DNA of 64,000 bases, from NCBI RefSeq assembly GCF_056712565.1, contig NZ_JBWXXM010000004.1, one strand, 5' to 3'. The notes under the pieces were generated by a model that searched no databases, was not told where the DNA came from, and worked only from the letters and a program-made list of their open reading frames with translations. Below, piece by piece: positions 50,702 to 58,705 of the stretch. Each line of letters begins with the position of its first letter. Within the stretch, counting starts at the first letter, position 1. The position numbers and the translations under genes are program-made. Origin of the DNA: a plasmid.

Positions 50702-51313
50702 TTAAAGCGAAAAACTAAAGCCCAGAAGGGAAGCTAAAGAACTTGAGGATTGGTTAAACGTGCTGTGCAATGCGAAGGTCATTGGGAATGACTTAAATTC
50801 CGTAACCTGATCCCGCGCATAGGTGACATCGCCGGTAGTGACCGGGAATACCGTCATCTCATTTTCCAGTTTGGTTAAACCGGAGGACAGCAACCGATAA
50901 ATACGCACATTGAGCAAATATTTAGACGGTATATTCCCGGTACCGTCCGGATTGATCACCCGACTTTTTGCCGTCTTAAACCAGTCCAAAACGAGGCCAT
51001 CAACGGTATCCCTGACCATCATTGTTATCTGCCCAGGCGAACGCTCCGTTGGCTGAAGGATATTCCCTCCGCCGATTTTAATCGTTTCATATTCGATGCT
51101 GTAATCGTGGTAGGTAATGTCTTTAGCAAAGAAGTCTGCCCCCTCCAGACCATCAACTTCGACAGAGAACTGCCATCCTTGCGCGAACAGCATTTTGTTC
51201 ATGATGATTGACGTCAGCTTACCAACTTCCCGCTCACCAACGCCGGAGCCAAATAATGTCGTCGTTAATGCCGAAGATACATAAGACTTTACTGAAGCAA
51301 CATTAAGCCCCAT
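50702..51313 (-). CDS. tail tube protein (tub-position), 203 aa
   Basis: ORF track; synteny. Confidence 0.4.
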   Translation of the reverse strand: MGLNVASVKSYVSSALTTTLFGSGVGEREVGKLTSIIMNKMLFAQGWQFSVEVDGLEGADFFAKDITYHDYSIEYETIKIGGGNILQPTERSPGQITMMVRDTVDGLVLDWFKTAKSRVINPDGTGNIPSKYLLNVRIYRLLSSGLTKLENEMTVFPVTTGDVTYARDQVTEFKSFPMTFALHSTFNQSSSSLASLLGFSFSL

Positions 51314-51323
51314 ATCAGCCCCC

Positions 51324-51914
<591 letters not shown>

Positions 51915-52043
51915 TTACCCGATTCTACGAGTTGTCATTTGTTACCGGTCAGTCTACACATTTCAGATGCTGCGTTAAAAAACCCAAGTACTTCAAGTAG
52001 CACATCGTCATCAACACCCAGCCCCAAGATACGGTGATAAAAT

Positions 52044-53078
52044 TCAAGCCTTAAGAGGCTTTGTGTATGTTCGTGTAATCCATCCAGTAATAAACTCGTC
52101 CCCTGATTTAACCTGCACGAAAAGCCATTGGCGATCTTTTTTATCTAAAACAGCCACTATAGTATTTTTGCCAATGCATTCAATCACCTCACTATTTATA
52201 GAAGGACTGACGTGTAATCTTACGTTCTCACCAGTTATAAAACGAAAACCATTGAGATCTTCCCAACTAATTTCTTTGTTTTCTTTAATTAATTGTTGTT
52301 TTGATATTGGTTTATCCTCAAACAGAGATATAAAATATGATTCTGCCTTGTGTATTCCCAGCAAGGTTTTCTCTTTTCCGTAATCAATAAAAGCACCAAA
52401 CACAACTTGAGAAAATATAACCATTAGTAACCATTGCAGTGGATAAGGAAGCTCTTTAAATGAATCAACAAACTTTGAGCTAGGTTTATTTAATCCTTTA
52501 TTTTGAACATTACTTTTGGTGTGTGATGTTTCAGTAGCACCTTCAGCATAAGCCTGCGCAATAGATGAAATCCCCTGCTCTATTATTTGATGTAATGAAG
52601 CATTTCTTGTTCTAGCATAGTGATCTAGTACTTTCTTTATGTCTTGGCTTACATCTATTTTATAACTTGCACTTTGTTGTAATTCTTTAAGTATCGCTTG
52701 CATGTTATTTAAACCAGCTTGCTTATTAAGCACCTCAAGCTGTTTTCGTAATGGCATAGCTATTTCGGCCTGTTTCCTTAGCATTTGAATATATCTATTT
52801 GCATCATGAGGGAAAAGAGCCTGAGTCTGTTTCTGTAAAATCGCGATATGTTCACGATACTTGCTGCCTATTCCAGCCAAGTTCGGTATACTAGCCAATT
52901 GTTTTCGAAGAGAGTTACTAATTACAGCTTGTCTATTCAATCTTGGCATATTTTGAAAAGAATGTTTTTCTATTCCTAATTGTTTTTGCAAGATCGCTAC
53001 GTGATCTTTGTATGATGGAATGAGCACTGACTGTTTATACAGCAACTTCAACTCATTAGAATTAGTAATTTTTGTCAT
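52044..53078 (-). CDS. membrane-anchored protein with N-terminal ILQKQ-type repeats and C-terminal SH3-like domain (sim-position cluster)
   Basis: 344-aa; repeats HVAILQKQ / HIAILQKQ / LRKQ; TM segment LPYPLQWLLMVIFSQVVFGAFIDYG; C-terminal GENVRLHVSPSINSEVIECIGKNTIVAVLDKKDRQWLFVQVKSGDEFITGWITRTY; AT-rich codon usage. Confidence 0.5.
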   Translation of the reverse strand: MTKITNSNELKLLYKQSVLIPSYKDHVAILQKQLGIEKHSFQNMPRLNRQAVISNSLRKQLASIPNLAGIGSKYREHIAILQKQTQALFPHDANRYIQMLRKQAEIAMPLRKQLEVLNKQAGLNNMQAILKELQQSASYKIDVSQDIKKVLDHYARTRNASLHQIIEQGISSIAQAYAEGATETSHTKSNVQNKGLNKPSSKFVDSFKELPYPLQWLLMVIFSQVVFGAFIDYGKEKTLLGIHKAESYFISLFEDKPISKQQLIKENKEISWEDLNGFRFITGENVRLHVSPSINSEVIECIGKNTIVAVLDKKDRQWLFVQVKSGDEFITGWITRTYTKPLKA

Positions 53079-53152
53079 ATTATTCCATTTCTATAATAGA
53101 ATATTACGCAACCAATGTTTTATTGATTGCGTTAATCTTTAACACAGAAAGA

Positions 53153-53629
53153 TCATTTGCCTCGTTTAATACATCCATCCATTTTGGCTTGTTGATACAA
53201 CTTACTTAGCCCAGAAAGAGGGAATGTAGCAATTTTTTCATTATCAACATAAGCATCAATCATATTAGCATTTGAATCTGCTGCATCTTGCCAAAAGGCA
53301 TACCACCAAGAATCTCCAACCATTGATCCAAGATTGCTAAAAGGATATTGATCACCATCTATAGTTAATACTATTTTATTCTTGTCAGCATTATACTCTT
53401 TTTTATTATTCGACGAACTTAGCAACAAGCCTAAACTACCTGCACTATCTGGTGAACCATACATGAATCCCATATCACATAAAAAACTTATCTTATCACC
53501 ATTATGATTATGGATTGTATATTCTCTCCCCCCTCTCTCTTCAATTACATTCCATTGTAGAGGATCAATTTTTGCAAATGTTCCTGCTGAAACTAACGAT
53601 ACAAATAATAAAAACCATCTCATATTCAT
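53153..53629 (-). CDS. secreted/periplasmic protein with signal peptide (sim-position cluster)
   Basis: N-terminus MNMRWFLLFVSLVSAGTFAKIDP (n-h-c signal peptide with AxA-like cleavage context). Confidence 0.5.
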   Translation of the reverse strand: MNMRWFLLFVSLVSAGTFAKIDPLQWNVIEERGGREYTIHNHNGDKISFLCDMGFMYGSPDSAGSLGLLLSSSNNKKEYNADKNKIVLTIDGDQYPFSNLGSMVGDSWWYAFWQDAADSNANMIDAYVDNEKIATFPLSGLSKLYQQAKMDGCIKRGK

Positions 53630-53651
53630 TCTTTTCGCTTCTTATCTGTAA

Positions 53652-54002
53652 TTATTCTGCAATATCATTTGCCCATTGCACGGCAGCAAAATGAGTACCC
53701 AAACCACTCAGGAAAGCAATTACCCCCAAAACAATACTTGCTGCTGTTGATTCAAACAAAGTACCAATACTATAGCCAATAGCTCCCCATACTAAGCTAA
53801 ATACAATCATCAATGGTATTGCTAGAAATTTTATTCTTAAACTAAAAATCAGTCCAAGAAAAGAACCGCCAAAGGCCCACCATGATTTAGACATTAAACC
53901 TATCAGTATTGACAGAATTCCTATTTCAATAAAGAGAATATTAGATTGCTCTTCATTGAATTTCGCATTTGTTACACCTTTACGAACATGTTCAGATGAC
54001 AT
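53652..54002 (-). CDS. small polytopic membrane protein (sim-position cluster)
   Basis: 116-aa, three hydrophobic helices (ILFIEIGILSILIGLM, FLGLIFSLRIKFLAIPLMIVFSLVWGAIGY, AASIVLGVIAFLSGLG). Confidence 0.45.
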   Translation of the reverse strand: MSSEHVRKGVTNAKFNEEQSNILFIEIGILSILIGLMSKSWWAFGGSFLGLIFSLRIKFLAIPLMIVFSLVWGAIGYSIGTLFESTAASIVLGVIAFLSGLGTHFAAVQWANDIAE

Positions 54003-54148
54003 GATTAACTATCTCCTGCCACAGATAAAACGCCTTAAAATAACATTTTGTAGCATAAAGTTTCACCATGCAATGGTCAAAATCTTTGACCCATATCAAT
54101 TAAACTCATACATTTTAGTTACCAGAGAAATAATTTACATGGTTGCAA

Positions 54149-54165
54149 GTTGCTCTAATTATTTT
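54149..54165 (+). promoter_or_regulatory. C1 operator-like 17-mer in the promoter region of the sim-position cluster
   Basis: gttgctctaattatttt, 14/17. Confidence 0.4.
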
Positions 54166-54292
54166 ATTTTTTTAGCTTCATATGCTACATTAACTTGCTT
54201 GCGTGCTAATGCATTTTCGGTTTATCCTAAACAGGCATCTTAGTAAAACGGATGCCGGGATTGGAACCCCGGATAATGCAAAAGGCGACATA

Positions 54293-54314
54293 GACGCCAA
54301 AAGCGTCTTTTTTT
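54293..54314 (+). terminator. intrinsic terminator on the plus strand with no protein gene upstream
   Basis: gacgc caaaa gcgtc followed by T7. Confidence 0.5.
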
Positions 54315-54717
54315 GTGTCATGCCATCGCACAACCATACGTAGCACATAGCTCCGAGATCAATGGTAGTGCTGGCTGGGCTGCCGAAAGGCAGGCCGGTT
54401 CCCTTTTGCGCCGGTAGTTCCAACCCAGTCAGTGCTACCGCCATTGAGATTGGAACCTCACGCGGTAGCTCCTTAAATTAGCAAAAGGAGGCTGCCATTG
54501 TGGCTACTATCCCTACCCCTACTCATCCTGAATTTATCTGGCGCTTTTACTCCTGCCAAAAACACCACTATCACTTCGTTATCGCAGCAACAGAAGACGA
54601 AGCACGCTCTCAATTGCCTGATGGCCCCTGCATTTTTACTGCCCGTTTTTCAACTAACTCGCGCAATTCACTTAGTTACTGGAGCCTCCCCTTCTCTGCC
54701 GACGTTCAGGGGGGTTT

Positions 54718-55755
54718 ATGAAAACACCTCTCGTCACCCGTAATGAAATAGCCGAAGCGATCGCCTTGCATACTGCCTGTATGCCGACACGGGAGATCCC
54801 CGGCGCAATTGCTAACTATTTCATGATAACCAGACGTTTTTATACCCGAACAGATAAGGCTGTGATCAACAGGCTACTGATAGCCGAGATCAGGGATTAT
54901 TTGATTGAACAAGGACGTCTACGTTACGCAACAGTGGCAGCAGAAATGAGAAAGGAGGCACATAGAATGACCGGTAATAATTTAAATGTTGAAAAAACAG
55001 CACCTGTTGCTTCAGCTACGCCATCACCAGCTGTGAATGTTATCTCCAACACTGGAGACACAATCGACAGCCAGACACTGTTAAAGATGGTCAATGAAGC
55101 GCGTAAGTTATGTGGGGAACCAGAGGTTCGGAACAACAAATTCATCGAAAAAATACTCGATGAGCTTGATGGTGAGCACTACACAAAAAGTGTAGTGGAA
55201 AAAATGAACAAAACATCAATGCTTGTCATAACCATGACTTTCAAACAAGCCCTGCGAGTCGCCGCGCGCGAGTCAAAAGCGGTCCGCCGTTCGCTGATCG
55301 ACAAACTGGAAGAATTACAGCAGGCAAACTCCCCTACCCCATCGATCCCCCAGACATTACCAGAAGCCCTACGCCTGGCTGCCGAGTTAGCAGAACAGAA
55401 AATGCAGTTGGAACAACAGCTGGTGGCCGCAGCCCCTAAAGTCGATTTTGCCGACCGGGTATCAGTGGCCAATGGAATCCTGATCGGGAACTTTGCAAAG
55501 GTCGTTGGACTTAAGCAAAACGCCCTTTTCTCATGGTTGCGCCAGAACGGCATTCTCATGGCTTTTGGTGCGCGCAAAAACGTACCGCGCCAGCAGTACA
55601 TTAACGCCGGGTATTTCACGGTGAAAGAAGTGGTGCTGGATGATGAAAATGGCTACCAGATACGGCTGACGCCCCAATTAACGGGTAAAGGCCAGCAGTG
55701 GTTAACTCGCAAGCTACTTGATGCTGGTTTGTTAAAACCAGTAGCAATAGGTTAA
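54718..55755 (+). CDS. KilAC-domain antirepressor-like protein (rlfA-position)
   Basis: 345-aa; C-terminal 130 aa (PQTLPEALRLAAELAEQK...GKGQQWLTRKLLDAGLL) paralogous to the C-terminus of the next gene; GGGG-ATG start context. Confidence 0.55.
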   Translation: MKTPLVTRNEIAEAIALHTACMPTREIPGAIANYFMITRRFYTRTDKAVINRLLIAEIRDYLIEQGRLRYATVAAEMRKEAHRMTGNNLNVEKTAPVASATPSPAVNVISNTGDTIDSQTLLKMVNEARKLCGEPEVRNNKFIEKILDELDGEHYTKSVVEKMNKTSMLVITMTFKQALRVAARESKAVRRSLIDKLEELQQANSPTPSIPQTLPEALRLAAELAEQKMQLEQQLVAAAPKVDFADRVSVANGILIGNFAKVVGLKQNALFSWLRQNGILMAFGARKNVPRQQYINAGYFTVKEVVLDDENGYQIRLTPQLTGKGQQWLTRKLLDAGLLKPVAIG

Positions 55756-55776
55756 CAAAAGAAAAAACCTGCCAGC

Positions 55777-55800
55777 AAACTGGCAGGTTTCTGAGCAGAT
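55777..55800 (+). terminator. intrinsic terminator after rlfA-position gene
   Basis: A6 cctgccag caaa ctggcagg tttctg. Confidence 0.65.
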
Positions 55801-55832
55801 CGTCCAACCCGATCTGGATCGGGTCAGAAAAA

Positions 55833-55849
55833 TTTGCTCTAATAAATTT
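55833..55849 (+). promoter_or_regulatory. C1 operator upstream of rlfB-position gene
   Basis: tttgctctaataaattt, 16/17 to consensus. Confidence 0.55.
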
Positions 55850-55918
55850 CGTTTTCTAAGTGCAAAGAATCACCTTTTCGAGCTGGTGATTGAAGGTTGA
55901 TGCAAATTTGGAGAAAAA

Positions 55919-56719
55919 ATGCAACAAACATTCAATGCGGATATGAATATATCAAACCTTCATCAAAATGTCGATCCTTCAACCACTCTGCCTGTTATTT
56001 GTGGTGTTGAAATTACGACCGACCGCGCTGGCCGTTACAACCTTAATGCTCTACACAGAGCGAGCGGACTCGGTGCCCATAAAGCGCCAGCTCAATGGCT
56101 AAGAACGCTGTCAGCCAAACAGCTTATCGAAGAGCTTGAAAAAGAAACTATGCAGAATTGCATAGTTTCGTTCGAAGGCCGTGGCGGCGGTACGTTTGCC
56201 CATGAATTGCTCGCTGTGGAGTACGCAGGCTGGATTTCTCCCGCGTTTCGGCTGAAGGTAAACCAGACATTTATCGACTATCGAGCCGGAAGATTACAAC
56301 CTGCTATTCCGCAGAGTCTCCCTGAAGCTCTCCGTTTGGCTGCCGACCTGGCAGAGCAAAAGCAACGGCTGGAGCAAAAAATGCTTATGGATGCGCCTAA
56401 AGTCGAATTCGCCGAACGCGTTGCTACCGCCAGCGGGGTTCTAATCGGCAACTATGCCAAAGTGCTCGGCCTGGGCCAAAACTATCTCTTCACCTGGTTG
56501 CGTGATAACGGAATTCTGATCGCAACCGGTGAACGCAGGAACGTCCCCAAACAAGAATACATATCCCGTGGGTATTTCACCCTTAAAGAAACCGTGATCG
56601 ATACAAGCAATGGAAGCAGGATTTCTTTCACGACTCGTATAACCGGCAAAGGTCAGCAGTGGCTGATGAAGCGATTGCTTGATGCTGGTGTGCTGGTACC
56701 TGTCGCGGCAACGCGCTAA
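55919..56719 (+). CDS. KilA-N / KilAC antirepressor-like protein (rlfB-position)
   Basis: 266-aa; N-terminal KilA-N-like region (GRYNLNALHRASGLGAHKAPAQWLRT) plus KilAC-like C-terminus shared with the preceding gene. Confidence 0.55.
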   Translation: MQQTFNADMNISNLHQNVDPSTTLPVICGVEITTDRAGRYNLNALHRASGLGAHKAPAQWLRTLSAKQLIEELEKETMQNCIVSFEGRGGGTFAHELLAVEYAGWISPAFRLKVNQTFIDYRAGRLQPAIPQSLPEALRLAADLAEQKQRLEQKMLMDAPKVEFAERVATASGVLIGNYAKVLGLGQNYLFTWLRDNGILIATGERRNVPKQEYISRGYFTLKETVIDTSNGSRISFTTRITGKGQQWLMKRLLDAGVLVPVAATR

Positions 56720-56748: not shown

Positions 56749-57594
56749 ATGCTGGCTAAAGTCACTTTCCTGAGCTGTATAACGATGAGCGATTTTACTT
56801 TTTCTGGCTATGAATTGGCCTGCTTTGTAACACACTCCGGTCTATCTCGTAGCGCCGGGCATATCCTGTCGCAATGTGCAAATCTAGCGGCAACAACCAG
56901 TGAATACTTCATTCACAAGCCTCACCGCCTGATCGCGGCAGAAACTGGTTATAGCCAATCAACCGTCGTTCGTGCATTCCGTGAAGCTGTAAACAAAGGA
57001 ATTCTGTCTGTAGAGATTGTTATCGGCGATCACCATGAACGTCGTGCTAACCTGTACCGGTTTACACCATCCTTTTTGGCCTTCGCACAACAAGCCAAAA
57101 ATGCGCTGATTGAAAGCAAATTAAAGATCTCTTCAGCGGCAACCAAGGTTAAAGCTGTTCTCGCTAAGACATTGGCTTTATTTAATTTTTTATCCACACC
57201 CCCATGTCAAAATGATACCCCCTCCCCCTGTCAGGATGACGTGGCAATAAAGAATAAGAAGTCACAAGTTAAAAAAACAAAAAGATCAGTTTCCGGCGGT
57301 GCCGGAACGACCAGACTCAAAAAATTGACTTCATGGATCGCTGAGGTAAAAGCAAAGGCTGACAATCTGCGGTTATCCAAAAAACGCGCTCAAAAACATG
57401 AGTTCAAGCAGAAAGTAGAGGCGGCAGCGCGGAAATATGCTTACCTGAAGAACAAGCGTTCTCCTGATATTGGCGGGGTATCAAACTTCGATAATCTGCC
57501 GCATTGCATGACGGTAAACGAAGCTCTTAATGCGGTTTTAGCCAAAAATAAAGATAACGAACAATGGGGTATACCGGCAGGATTCAGAGGGTGA
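56749..57594 (+). CDS. putative DNA-binding protein with N-terminal winged-helix/HTH (pmgF-position)
   Basis: 281-aa; HTH-like GYSQSTVVRAFREAVNKGIL; Lys-rich C-terminal half. Confidence 0.4.
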   Translation: MLAKVTFLSCITMSDFTFSGYELACFVTHSGLSRSAGHILSQCANLAATTSEYFIHKPHRLIAAETGYSQSTVVRAFREAVNKGILSVEIVIGDHHERRANLYRFTPSFLAFAQQAKNALIESKLKISSAATKVKAVLAKTLALFNFLSTPPCQNDTPSPCQDDVAIKNKKSQVKKTKRSVSGGAGTTRLKKLTSWIAEVKAKADNLRLSKKRAQKHEFKQKVEAAARKYAYLKNKRSPDIGGVSNFDNLPHCMTVNEALNAVLAKNKDNEQWGIPAGFRG

Positions 57595-57890: not shown

Positions 57891-58072
57891 TACAATCGTT
57901 GCGGGTGCTTGAGGCTATCTGCTTCAGGCATTACCCGAAAAGCAGATAGAAGAAAGCCCCAGATAACATTACGCGTCCTGCAAGACGCTTAACATTAATC
58001 TGAGGCCATATCTATGCTTAGCATACGTAGATTAACCCTCTCCCATTTTAAGGAGCAAGGAATTTTTTACTG

Positions 58073-58705
58073 CTATGCCGCATTTCCAATTATGGATTCA
58101 GCGACCAGAACAACCCCATGCTTACTTCGATCTGGGTGTTCACTCCATATCTCGGATTCAGGAATACTTACCCCGTCATAGCAAACACGTTCGCCGTCAA
58201 ACGGGTAATACTGAGCGGCATCGGTGTCGAGGATAAACACTTTTAGCTCGGAAGAGCGACGGGCGATATGTTGCCAAAGAGCTTTTCCACCTTCGTATTG
58301 CTCATTATCACTGAGCAAAACAACACCAGCTTTTGAGGCTACGGTTTCGTAAACAAAAGTAGCTAAACCGACATCCCGGACAGTTCCATCAACCACGATA
58401 CCTTCAATCTGGGCAACATCGCTATCCTCCCAGAACTTCCTTACCAGTACGCCTTCAAGCTGCGGGCGACGTTGAAGTTCAAGAGTAGCGACAACCTTAT
58501 GCCGCATATCACCATCGATAACAGAAGGCGCAGCCTCTATTACAGCTGCAAATGGGGTTTTGGAATCCCATATAACCTGGTAAAGCACACCCTGGATGGT
58601 AACTCCGTCCAGGATCGAAAATCGACGAGCGACAGTACCCGGGGAGTACGACATTGGAATCACAGCCATTTTAGAGTCCCCCTTTAACAGTACAGGCACA
58701 AACAT
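58073..58705 (-). CDS. hypothetical structural-block protein (210 aa)
   Basis: ORF track; AT-rich promoter-like region upstream. Confidence 0.35.
   Translation of the reverse strand: MFVPVLLKGDSKMAVIPMSYSPGTVARRFSILDGVTIQGVLYQVIWDSKTPFAAVIEAAPSVIDGDMRHKVVATLELQRRPQLEGVLVRKFWEDSDVAQIEGIVVDGTVRDVGLATFVYETVASKAGVVLLSDNEQYEGGKALWQHIARRSSELKVFILDTDAAQYYPFDGERVCYDGVSIPESEIWSEHPDRSKHGVVLVAESIIGNAA

What the first reader, a model, noticed from the sequence alone, without database searches (positions are those of the whole stretch)
54003..54717. Long intergenic region with twin hairpins sharing an ATTGGAAC loop and an orphan terminator
Between the sim-position cluster and the rlfA-position gene lie about 700 bp with no convincing ORF. 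It contains two hairpins with the same 8-nt loop (ccggg-ATTGGAAC-cccgg at 54255-54272 and tgag-ATTGGAAC-ctca near 54444-54459) and a strong plus-strand terminator (54293-54314) with no gene upstream. In P1, as I recall, tRNA genes lie around here; I could not fold a cloverleaf. The region may encode a small RNA, protein-binding sites, or tRNA remnants.
Basis: partly seen in the sequence, partly recalled or inferred. Interest (0 to 1): 0.4.

Follow-up and report, generated by a model that had tools for sequence, protein, structure and literature searches.

The report
Phage P1-type C4 antisense RNA switch
The "empty" 700 bp is the well-known immunity control region of a P1-like phage-plasmid: a small antisense RNA (C4), a short terminated leader RNA (IsrK-like) and two matching sets of target sites that together decide whether the phage's anti-repressor is made; it is ordinary, not a tRNA remnant.

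Summary
The described features are real at the stated coordinates (second hairpin off by one base). They are parts of one known system, the P1-type immI regulatory cassette. Rfam places an IsrK-type leader RNA at 54235-54313 (58.3 bits, cut-off 50) and a C4 antisense RNA at 54358-54445 (76.7 bits, cut-off 45). ARAGORN finds no tRNA anywhere in the window.

The shared loop ATTGGAAC is the "a" target site, present upstream (a1, 54260-67) and downstream (a2, 54449-56) of C4. C4 carries the complement GUUCCAA (54417-23). A second pair of sites, GCAAAAGG (b1 54278-85; b2 54481-88), matches the C4 loop CCUUUUGC, and b2 overlaps the ribosome-binding site of icd. The "orphan" terminator ends the leader RNA.

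The last 222 bp are not intergenic: they are icd (95% identical to P1 Icd), coupled to ant1, not rlfA.

In 103 related loci, the C4 7-mer has its exact complement on both sides in 98. Foreign alleles match in 0 of 1339 tests. Relative to P1, the sim operon and this control region are replaced by a D6-like cassette that differs from D6 by a coordinated 2-nt change at all three sites.

Verdict: a new member of a known kind; low interest.

The parts
54149..54165 (+). C1-repressor operator-like site (equivalent of P1 Oc4/Op51)
   Evidence: GTTGCTCTAATTATTTT matches the operator consensus ATTGCTCTAATAAATTT at 14/17. The window has 10 matches with 3 or fewer mismatches against 0.21 expected. The site aligns column for column with the annotated P1 Oc4.
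54199..54228 (+). Inferred promoter of the leader/C4/icd/ant transcript (equivalent of P1 P1c4/P51b): -35 TTGCGT, 17-nt spacer, -10 TATCCT
   Evidence: The -10 aligns with the annotated P1c4 -10 TATAGT of P1 and ends 7 nt before position 1 of the isrK model match (54235). This is inferred by homology; the consensus scan did not list it.
54235..54315 (+). IsrK-type leader RNA: hairpin 1 (54235-55), hairpin 2 presenting a1 (54255-72), single-stranded b1, and an intrinsic terminator
   Evidence: Rfam RF01394 isrK scores 58.3 bits (cut-off 50) over model positions 1-77. The fold shows three hairpins. Hairpins 1 and 2 have compensatory changes in 9 of 10 pairs across 49 loci.
54260..54267 (+). a1 target site (ATTGGAAC) in the loop of leader hairpin 2
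   Evidence: Complement of C4 54417-23. The upstream copy is present in 101 of 103 loci and covaries with C4.
54278..54285 (+). b1 target site (GCAAAAGG)
   Evidence: Exact complement of the C4 loop CCUUUUGC. Loop-to-b1 complementarity averages 7.2 nt for a locus's own loop and 4.9 nt for foreign loops.
54292..54315 (+).
   Evidence: 6-bp stem with 4 G-C pairs, followed by T7. It is the third hairpin of the isrK model. A terminator-like hairpin with a T run lies between a1 and C4 in 82 of 98 related loci.
54358..54445 (+). C4 antisense RNA (predicted mature form about 54364-54442, by alignment to the annotated P1 c4)
   Evidence: Rfam RF01695 scores 76.7 bits (cut-off 45), full length. MFE is -46.4 kcal/mol, z = -5.5. 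14 of 21 pairs show compensatory changes across 49 loci. P1 c4 ends are taken and the alignment.
54402..54409 (+). b' (CCUUUUGC) in the loop of the second C4 hairpin
54417..54426 (+). a' (GUUCCAA, plus CCC) in the single-stranded stretch of C4
   Evidence: D6 and JL22 carry GUCUCAA here together with TTGAGAC at both targets.
54445..54460 (+). a2 hairpin (tgag-ATTGGAAC-ctca), starting 3 nt after the predicted C4 3' end
   Evidence: a2 begins 19-26 nt after CAACCC in all 98 loci that have it. The stem covaries: 25 and 18 sequences carry double changes at the two core pairs.
54481..54491 (+). b2 target (GCAAAAGG, 54481-88) overlapping the icd Shine-Dalgarno AAGGAGG (54485-91)
   Evidence: In the family alignment b2 always runs into GGAG(G), followed by a start codon.
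54500..54721 (+). icd (73 aa, GTG start); its stop overlaps the ant1 start (ATGA)
   Evidence: 63/66 identical to P1 Icd. RefSeq annotates identical DNA as Icd-like.
54718..55755 (+). ant1 antirepressor, the regulated output
   Evidence: Pfam ANT/KilAC, E = 1e-30. 96% DNA identity to the P1 icd-ant-kilA region.

Best explanation
The region is the control cassette of a P1-type immI operon.

Transcription and processing. Transcription starts at about 54235, from a promoter next to a C1 operator. A fraction of transcripts stop at the terminator (54292-54315), giving an approximately 80-nt IsrK-like leader RNA that displays a1 in a hairpin loop and b1 as single strand. The rest read through and contain C4, which is cut out as a stable approximately 79-nt RNA. 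In P1 this cut is made by RNase P.

Repression. C4 pairs through its single-stranded a' (GUUCCAA) with the a2 loop. Through its loop b' (CCUUUUGC) it pairs with b2, which overlaps the icd ribosome-binding site. This blocks icd translation. Because ant1 is translationally coupled to icd (ATGA overlap), it also blocks synthesis of the Ant antirepressor, so C1 repression and lysogeny are kept.

Role of the leader. The upstream copy a1/b1 competes for the same C4 surfaces. As a free short RNA it acts as a decoy that relieves repression.

Specificity. The a/b sequences define immunity specificity. This element carries the D6-type b allele and a different a allele, and it is orthogonal to P1 and P7.

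What is shown here: the RNAs' family membership and folds, the three-way complementarity and its covariation, the overlap of b2 with the SD, the operator, and the terminator. What is inferred from P1 and Gifsy-1 experiments: processing, repression, the decoy action, and heteroimmunity.
For: Rfam hits are above the curated cut-offs for isrK and C4, adjacent and on the same strand. The same pair is found in D6, JL22 and Stx phage F039, where both are annotated, and C4 with an isrK leader recurs in diverse viral contigs.

The C4 fold has z = -5.5 and 14 of 21 pairs are compensatory.

a' has its exact complement both upstream and downstream in 98 of 103 unique loci spanning 14 alleles. Foreign alleles match in 0 of 1339 tests. 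The b' loop covaries with b1 and b2.

Window versus D6: GA to AG at a1, a2 and the complement in C4, with everything else in C4 nearly identical. P1 versus P7 shows the same kind of triple change.

Predicted duplex energies for C4 with its own a2+b2 are -24.4 kcal/mol, against about -10 with P1 or P7 targets. Own a1+b1 gives -30.2.

b2 overlaps the SD, 8 nt before the icd GTG. The P1 record annotates Oc4, P2c4/P1c4, a1, b1, c4, a2, b2, icd and ant in the same order.

Literature. C4 RNA is needed for full repression of ant in P1 (PMC8198154). In Gifsy-1, short terminated IsrK activates translation of the read-through mRNA more than 100-fold in trans, and a stable processed RNA (STnc1160) complementary to IsrK lies downstream. 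G28A and G31A, with partners C162U and C159U, affect this (PMC4825925). By my numbering against the isrK model, these positions fall in a1 (TTGGCGT) and a' (ACGCCAA). IsrK and STnc1160 are highly transcribed in lysogens (bioRxiv 10.1101/787010).
Against: There are no expression data for this element; processing, repression and decoy activity are all by homology.

The Rfam c4-a1b1 model scores only 18.1 bits here (cut-off 46.7), so the leader is of the IsrK type rather than the P1 type.

The operator has 3 mismatches.

The Gifsy-1 cis data do not fit a pure decoy model. Mutating a1 within the long transcript raised, rather than lowered, basal translation, so a1 also acts through alternative folding of the precursor.

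A conserved alternative pairing exists between the C4 3' arm and the segment after a2. The simple model does not explain it.

Duplex energies ignore intramolecular structure. The D6 C4 is predicted to bind the window a2 region as well as its own, through the adjacent TTGAGA, so the window/D6 specificity difference may be incomplete.
Confidence: 0.9

Rival explanations
1. The region holds tRNA genes or decayed tRNA genes, as the reader recalled for P1.
For: C4-type RNAs have an acceptor-like closing stem and a 3' ...GCCA-like end. From my own knowledge of the literature (Hartmann et al. 1995), the P1 C4 precursor is an RNase P substrate, so a superficial tRNA-like flavour exists (structure).
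Against: ARAGORN finds 0 tRNA or tmRNA in the whole window. No tRNA family appears even at E<=1 in the Rfam scan of 53000-56000. The P1 record has no tRNA between sim and rlfA. The sequence is fully accounted for by isrK and C4 matches above cut-off.
Confidence: 0.01
2. The ATTGGAAC repeats are DNA-binding sites for a regulatory protein, for example an iteron- or operator-like pair, and the hairpins are incidental.
For: Two identical 8-mers lie 189 bp apart in a regulatory region that also contains a genuine protein operator (the C1 site).
Against: Across 103 loci the repeat sequence changes in step with a 7-mer inside the C4 RNA (98 of 103 own, 0 of 1339 foreign). Both copies always sit on the transcribed strand, in hairpin loops whose stems covary. 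One copy lies within a terminated RNA. A DNA-binding-site model predicts none of this.
Confidence: 0.02
3. The cassette works mainly in cis, as an RNA conformational switch. The leader a1/b1, the C4 body, the post-a2 segment and the SD hairpin form mutually exclusive structures within one read-through transcript. The terminated leader flips the switch, as in the Gifsy-1 structure A/B model. Trans-acting C4 plays only a minor part.
For: Gifsy-1 experiments were interpreted this way (PMC4825925). The window precursor has competing helices: the C4 3' arm pairs with 54462-69 (-18.9 kcal/mol for the extended a2 hairpin), and the same segment can pair with the icd SD (-14.8). That alternative pairing covaries across loci.
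Against: In P1, C4 acts in trans as a stable processed RNA and determines P1/P7 heteroimmunity. This rests on Citron and Schuster 1990, as cited in PMC8198154 and in the annotation. The C4 fold is by far the most stable element (-46.4 kcal/mol, z = -5.5). The two views are not exclusive.
Confidence: 0.3
4. The conserved sequence at 54362-54481 encodes a small 'Ash family' protein (39 aa), as RefSeq annotates, and the conservation is protein-level rather than RNA-level.
For: Pfam PF10554 Phage_ASH scores 33 bits against a cut-off of 26. RefSeq annotates the CDS on identical DNA. The homologous orf45 of Gifsy-1 was reported as translated and needed for coupling to anrP. The frame from the C4 5' ATG stays open into the downstream gene in many loci.
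Against: Variation follows base-pairing: 14 of 21 pairs are compensatory. In P1, the experimentally characterised member, the frame stops after 14 codons (sequence). Seven of 99 loci have no ATG and many have short, unrelated ORFs. The ORF coincides with the RNA from end to end.
Confidence: 0.15

Closest known systems
Bacteriophage P1/P7 immI operon: Oc4 - P51a/P51b - a1 b1 - c4 RNA - a2 b2 - icd - ant1/ant2
   Same: The order of all elements is identical. A C1 operator lies upstream. C4 matches the same Rfam family. There are two target pairs, with b2 at the icd RBS. icd and ant1 are 94-96% identical to P1 at the DNA level from 54527 on. Specificity alleles change in triplicate, as between P1 and P7.
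   Different: Upstream of codon 9 of icd there is no P1 homology. The a/b sequences differ: P1 has TTGACAG / GTTAGTG and the window has TTGGAAC / GCAAAAGG. The leader ends in a strong canonical terminator and matches isrK (58 bits), not c4-a1b1 (18 bits). The P1 leader is the reverse (c4-a1b1 51 bits, isrK 35 bits) and has only a weak 5-bp hairpin before its T run. The adjacent sim operon is replaced by three unrelated genes.
Phage D6 immI-like cassette and the second cassette of P1-like phage JL22 (next to pacB)
   Same: 87.7% identity over leader, C4, targets and icd. The isrK and C4 scores are the same, and b', b1 and b2 are identical.
   Different: The a allele differs at two adjacent bases in all three copies: TTGAGAC/GUCUCAA in D6 and JL22, TTGGAAC/GUUCCAA here. 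The genomic context and the downstream antirepressor also differ.
Salmonella Gifsy-1 IsrK - orf45/STnc1160 - anrP locus (PMC4825925)
   Same: A terminated leader sRNA of the same Rfam family is followed by a stable processed RNA complementary to it, and then by an antirepressor gene. Read-through of the leader terminator is needed to express the downstream genes.
   Different: Gifsy-1 is a lambdoid prophage and has no icd. There the small ORF overlapping the C4-like RNA (orf45) is the coupling ORF. The output is AnrP and then AntQ. The alleles are different.
Satellite phage P4 CI RNA with seqA / seqC
   Same: Homologous RNA: blastn finds 70.5% identity over window 54359-54539 to the P4 'cI' region (H50). 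The RNA is processed from an untranslated leader and has complementary sites on both sides.
   Different: In P4, pairing causes premature transcription termination rather than RBS occlusion, according to PMC4825925. The regulated genes are replication genes.

Membership tests
C4 antisense RNA (Rfam RF01695) | Covariance-model score at or above the curated gathering score, full-length match | tested here: met
   76.7 bits against a cut-off of 45, model positions 1-87 of 87, at window 54358-54445 +.
C4 antisense RNA (Rfam RF01695) | Long closing stem enclosing two hairpins, supported by covariation | tested here: met
   MFE -46.4 kcal/mol, z = -5.5. 14 of 21 consensus pairs carry compensatory changes in 49 loci.
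C4 antisense RNA (Rfam RF01695) | Two exposed segments (a', b') complementary to two sets of sites, one upstream (a1, b1) and one downstream (a2, b2) | tested here: met
   a' 54417-23 pairs with a1 54261-67 and a2 54450-56. b' 54402-09 pairs with b1 54278-85 and b2 54481-88. Family-wide, 98 of 103 own alleles match against 0 of 1339 foreign.
C4 antisense RNA (Rfam RF01695) | The downstream target overlaps the RBS of the first ORF of an antirepressor operon | tested here: met
   b2 overlaps AAGGAGG, 8 nt before the icd GTG. The icd stop overlaps the ant1 ATG.
C4 antisense RNA (Rfam RF01695) | Excised from a precursor by RNase P; represses icd/ant translation in trans | not testable with these tools
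   Known for P1 (annotation; PMC8198154). RNA analysis and reporter fusions would be needed here.
IsrK sRNA (Rfam RF01394) | Covariance-model score at or above the gathering score | tested here: met
   58.3 bits against a cut-off of 50, model positions 1-77 of 77, at 54235-54313 +.
IsrK sRNA (Rfam RF01394) | Three hairpins, the last a Rho-independent terminator; located directly upstream of a complementary processed RNA and an antirepressor gene | tested here: met
   Fold; terminator. C4 starts 43 nt downstream and ant1 lies at 54718.
IsrK sRNA (Rfam RF01394) | Hfq binding; trans-activation of the read-through mRNA | not testable with these tools
   Shown only for Gifsy-1 (PMC4825925).
c4-a1b1 motif (Rfam RF03163) | Covariance-model score at or above the gathering score | tested here: not met
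   18.1 bits against a cut-off of 46.7, at 54222-54275. The a1/b1 sites are nevertheless present. In P1, L045 and L048 the isrK and c4-a1b1 models hit the same leader, so the two models describe one kind of element and this copy is of the isrK flavour.
tRNA gene | Cloverleaf with anticodon, detectable by ARAGORN or Rfam tRNA models | tested here: not met
   0 genes in 64 kb. No tRNA hit at E<=1 in 53000-56000.
P1 immI operon | C1 operator upstream of the c4 promoters | tested here: met
   A 14/17 match at 54149-65, aligned to the P1 Oc4. Operator matches are enriched 10 against 0.21 in the window. Binding itself was not tested.

The most novel reading that the evidence does not exclude
In this D6/IsrK-type cassette carried by a P1-like plasmid, the strong leader terminator sets the ratio of decoy (leader with a1/b1) to C4. 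Every transcript yields a decoy, but only read-through transcripts yield C4. If so, de-repression of the C1-controlled promoter would produce an excess of anti-antisense RNA and flip Ant on, making immI a self-amplifying switch rather than a simple brake. In addition, the a and b alleles reassort independently: five loops are found with two different a' alleles. They are also shared between P1-like plasmids and lambdoid Stx/phiP27-type prophages; GUUCCAA occurs in both. This would create partial cross-immunity or cross-induction between unrelated co-resident prophages.
Probability: 0.3. Interest if true: 0.45.

Novelty: new member of a known kind. Interest (0 to 1): 0.15.

Why it matters
Little is at stake scientifically, because the system has been understood in outline since 1990. 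There are three practical points.

1. RefSeq annotation of identical DNA in many E. coli and Salmonella P1-like plasmids lists only an 'ash family protein' where the C4 RNA lies, and no ncRNA. The regulatory RNAs are therefore invisible to users.

2. The a/b allele of a phage-plasmid predicts which relatives it can coexist with or exclude. That is relevant to the spread of resistance-carrying P1-like plasmids.

3. The 103-locus covariation table gives a clean, large-scale confirmation of the three-site pairing rule that was derived from only P1 and P7.

Tried and rejected
- tRNA search (ARAGORN, whole window): nothing found.
- Simple enrichment of ATTGGAAC or GCAAAAGG in the window: not above chance as raw counts. 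Significance had to come from context and comparison with related loci.
- The consensus promoter scan did not list the homology-inferred promoter. Its two + strand hits (54086-54114, 54134-54162) do not align with the P1 promoters, so I did not use them.
- Pfam gave nothing for Icd. Its identity rests on 95% identity to P1 Icd.
- RNAalifold on the leader did not recover the terminator hairpin, because the alignment is gapped there. I counted terminators with a direct stem-plus-T-run scan instead.
- RNAalifold on the downstream segment recovered only the a2 stem.
- I tried to read the D6 genome paper (PMC5800970) and the P1 genome paper (PMC523184); neither is held.
- The duplex-energy matrix is too crude to decide window/D6 cross-reactivity.

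Full report
OBSERVATION. There is ccggg-ATTGGAAC-cccgg at 54255-54272, and tgag-ATTGGAAC-ctca at 54445-54460, one base to the right of the stated position. There is also a G+C-rich stem, AGACGC/GCGTCT at 54292-54308, followed by seven T. ATTGGAAC occurs only at these two places in the window. Two occurrences in 64 kb is what shuffles give (2.74 expected), so the count alone proves nothing.

Two descriptive statements are wrong. The last 222 bp of the "intergenic" stretch are an ORF (54500-54721, GTG start) whose product is 63/66 identical to P1 Icd. The gene that follows, at 54718, is ant1, with a KilAC domain (E = 1e-30) and 96% DNA identity to P1. It does not sit in the rlfA position. In P1 the interval between sim and rlfA holds c4, icd, ant1/2, kilA and repL, and no tRNA.

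WHAT IT IS. ARAGORN finds no tRNA or tmRNA anywhere in the window. Rfam gives two adjacent, same-strand matches above the curated cut-offs. One is isrK (RF01394) at 54235-54313, with 58.3 bits against a cut-off of 50. The other is C4 antisense RNA (RF01695) at 54358-54445, with 76.7 bits against 45. Both are full length.

The first hairpin of the finding is hairpin 2 of the isrK match, and the "orphan" terminator is its third hairpin. The second hairpin begins 3 nt after the predicted 3' end of C4. C4 folds with -46.4 kcal/mol (z = -5.5).

C4 carries GUUCCAA (54417-23) in its single-stranded stretch, which is the complement of TTGGAAC. It carries CCUUUUGC (54402-09) in the loop of its second hairpin. 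The complement of that loop, GCAAAAGG, lies at 54278-85, between hairpin 2 and the terminator. It lies again at 54481-88, overlapping the AAGGAGG Shine-Dalgarno 8 nt before the icd start.

This is exactly the a1-b1 / c4 (b', a') / a2-b2 layout annotated in the P1 record, down to the order Oc4 - promoters - a1 - b1 - c4 - a2 - b2 - icd - ant1. A C1-operator-like 17-mer (14/17) lies at 54149-65 and aligns with P1 Oc4. Operator matches are strongly enriched in the window, 10 against 0.21 expected. A -10 element TATCCT (54223-28) aligns with the annotated P1c4/P51b -10 and ends 7 nt before position 1 of the isrK match. This promoter is inferred by homology only.

COMPARATIVE TEST. A pattern scan of viral contigs for the invariant C4 core returned 120 loci, giving 103 unique loci with enough flank.
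- The exact reverse complement of each locus's own a' 7-mer is present both upstream (within 260 nt) and downstream (within 80 nt) in 98 of 103 loci, across 14 different alleles.
- The a' alleles of other loci match on both sides in 0 of 1339 tests.
- a2 starts 19-26 nt after the conserved CAACCC.
- The b' loop likewise covaries with b1 and b2. Its longest exact complement averages 7.2 and 8.3 nt for a locus's own loop, against 4.9 and 4.6 nt for foreign loops. b2 regularly runs into GGAG(G) followed by a start codon.
- A terminator-like hairpin with a T run lies between a1 and C4 in 82 of 98 loci.
- The C4 fold has compensatory changes at 14 of 21 pairs.

Thirteen diverse loci all have C4 above cut-off. 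Seven of them have isrK above cut-off directly upstream. In two of them, and in P1 at sub-threshold level, isrK and c4-a1b1 hit the same leader. These two Rfam families therefore describe one kind of element.

ORIGIN. The 715 bp are 100% identical in at least 15 P1-like (IncY-type, 90-100 kb) plasmids of E. coli and Salmonella. RefSeq annotates there only an "ash family protein", Icd-like and KilAC proteins, and no RNA.

Relative to P1, homology is 98% at 51311-51943 and 96% from 54527 onward. The 2.6 kb between is foreign. It replaces the sim operon, the operator, the promoters, the leader, c4, the targets and the first approximately 9 codons of icd. The control part resembles phage D6 and a second cassette of phage JL22, at 87.7% identity.

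Against those two, the window differs by GA to AG at a1, at a2 and, complementarily, in C4, while b is identical. P1 and P7 differ by the same kind of triple change at both a and b.

Crude duplex energies put the window C4 at -24 kcal/mol on its own a2+b2 and about -10 on P1 or P7 targets. The window/D6 discrimination is ambiguous in this model.

MECHANISM. Shown here: family membership, folds, three-way complementarity with covariation, b2-SD overlap, icd-ant1 overlap, operator and terminator.

Taken from experiments on relatives:
- In P1 the C1-controlled operon c4-icd-ant needs C4 RNA for full repression of ant (PMC8198154; annotation).
- In Gifsy-1, a fraction of IsrK transcripts read through the terminator to give an untranslated mRNA. 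Short IsrK supplied in trans activates translation more than 100-fold. A stable processed RNA complementary to IsrK (STnc1160) lies downstream.
- Mutations G28A and G31A and their partners C162U and C159U alter the switch (PMC4825925).
- Numbering from the isrK model start, G28 and G31 fall in a1 (TTGGCGT). C162 and C159 fall three bases apart in a' (ACGCCAA), as the a1:a' duplex requires. This mapping is my inference.
- IsrK and STnc1160 are abundant in lysogens.

My reading is as follows. C4 occludes the icd RBS through a2 and b2, and thereby silences Ant. The terminated leader is a competitor for the same C4 surfaces.

Two points remain unsettled. First, in Gifsy-1 an a1 mutation in cis raised basal translation, so a1 also acts through precursor folding. 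Second, the segment after a2 (54462-69) is the exact complement of the C4 3' arm (54434-41). This complementarity covaries across loci, and the segment can alternatively pair with the icd SD. These helices suggest a cis conformational component that I could not resolve.

RIVALS. tRNA remnants and DNA-protein sites are excluded by the data above. A protein-coding reading of the C4 region (the "Ash" frame, Pfam 33 bits) is unlikely as the cause of conservation. The variation is pair-wise compensatory, and in P1 the frame stops after 14 codons. However, translation of the homologous orf45 was reported in Gifsy-1, and the frame is open in many loci, so it is not excluded.

VERDICT. This is a correct observation of real features. 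The object is an unannotated but ordinary member of a long-known system, the P1 immI C4 antisense control with an IsrK-type leader, carrying a specificity allele that differs from P1, P7 and D6. Interest is low.

Noticed in passing
window 54434-54441 and 54462-54469 (also 54464-54496): The segment just after the a2 hairpin (GCGGTAGC) is the exact complement of the C4 3' arm (GCTACCGC). It gives an extended hairpin with a2 at its tip (-18.9 kcal/mol) that competes with the C4 closing stem in the unprocessed transcript. The same segment can instead pair with the icd Shine-Dalgarno (-14.8 kcal/mol). The complementarity covaries across related loci (own mean 6.4 nt, foreign 4.7 nt). I know of no description of this for P1, and it is not explained here.
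   Followed up: partly
window 54362-54481 (+): RefSeq annotates a 39-aa 'ash family protein' (Pfam PF10554, 33 bits) that coincides with the C4 RNA. It is in the same frame as icd and ends with TAG directly at b2. In P1 the frame stops after 14 codons. In many lambdoid loci it stays open into the downstream gene. It is probably an annotation artefact of a conserved RNA, but the Gifsy-1 homologue orf45 was reported as translated.
   Followed up: partly
window 51944-54526: Relative to P1, the sim operon and the whole immI control region are replaced en bloc. The three minus-strand ORFs in the sim position are 116 aa with no Pfam hit, 158 aa with a signal-peptide-like N-terminus, and 344 aa with a weak SH3_3 match. 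They have no P1 homology. The 116- and 158-aa genes travel with this cassette in other plasmids (L127).
   Followed up: partly
window 57903-58077 (+), ORFs 58014-58236: A sok antitoxin RNA (RF01794, 97 bits) with a hok-type toxin ORF lies downstream of kilA (55919-56719) and repL (56749-57594), where P1 has rlfA/rlfB. On the related plasmid pFORC64.1 the corresponding gene is annotated hokD.
   Followed up: no
window 55833-55849 (+) and eight other sites (6160, 10433, 10897, 10980, 12541, 13017, 23207, 27056): C1-operator matches with 3 or fewer mismatches: 10 in the window against 0.21 expected. The site at 55833-49 (1 mismatch) corresponds to the P1 OrepL/Op53 upstream of kilA.
   Followed up: no
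L001 2234-2315 (P1); L045 3125-3216; L048 839-927: The Rfam families isrK (RF01394, not in a clan) and c4-a1b1 (RF03163, clan CL00128) hit overlapping coordinates of the same leader element. They appear to model one homologous element and could be placed in the same clan.
   Followed up: partly
L002 2074-2153 (phage D6): D6 has a second, weaker C4-like match (40.2 bits, below cut-off) about 550 nt upstream of its main C4. JL22 carries a complete second isrK-C4-icd-roi cassette next to pacB, in addition to its P1-type immI.
   Followed up: no
L017 6560-6644; L009 6600-6665; L014 1243-1308: Unrelated RNA hits in the fetched viral contigs: a type II hammerhead ribozyme (63.5 bits) and int-alpA RNAs (57 bits).
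   Followed up: no
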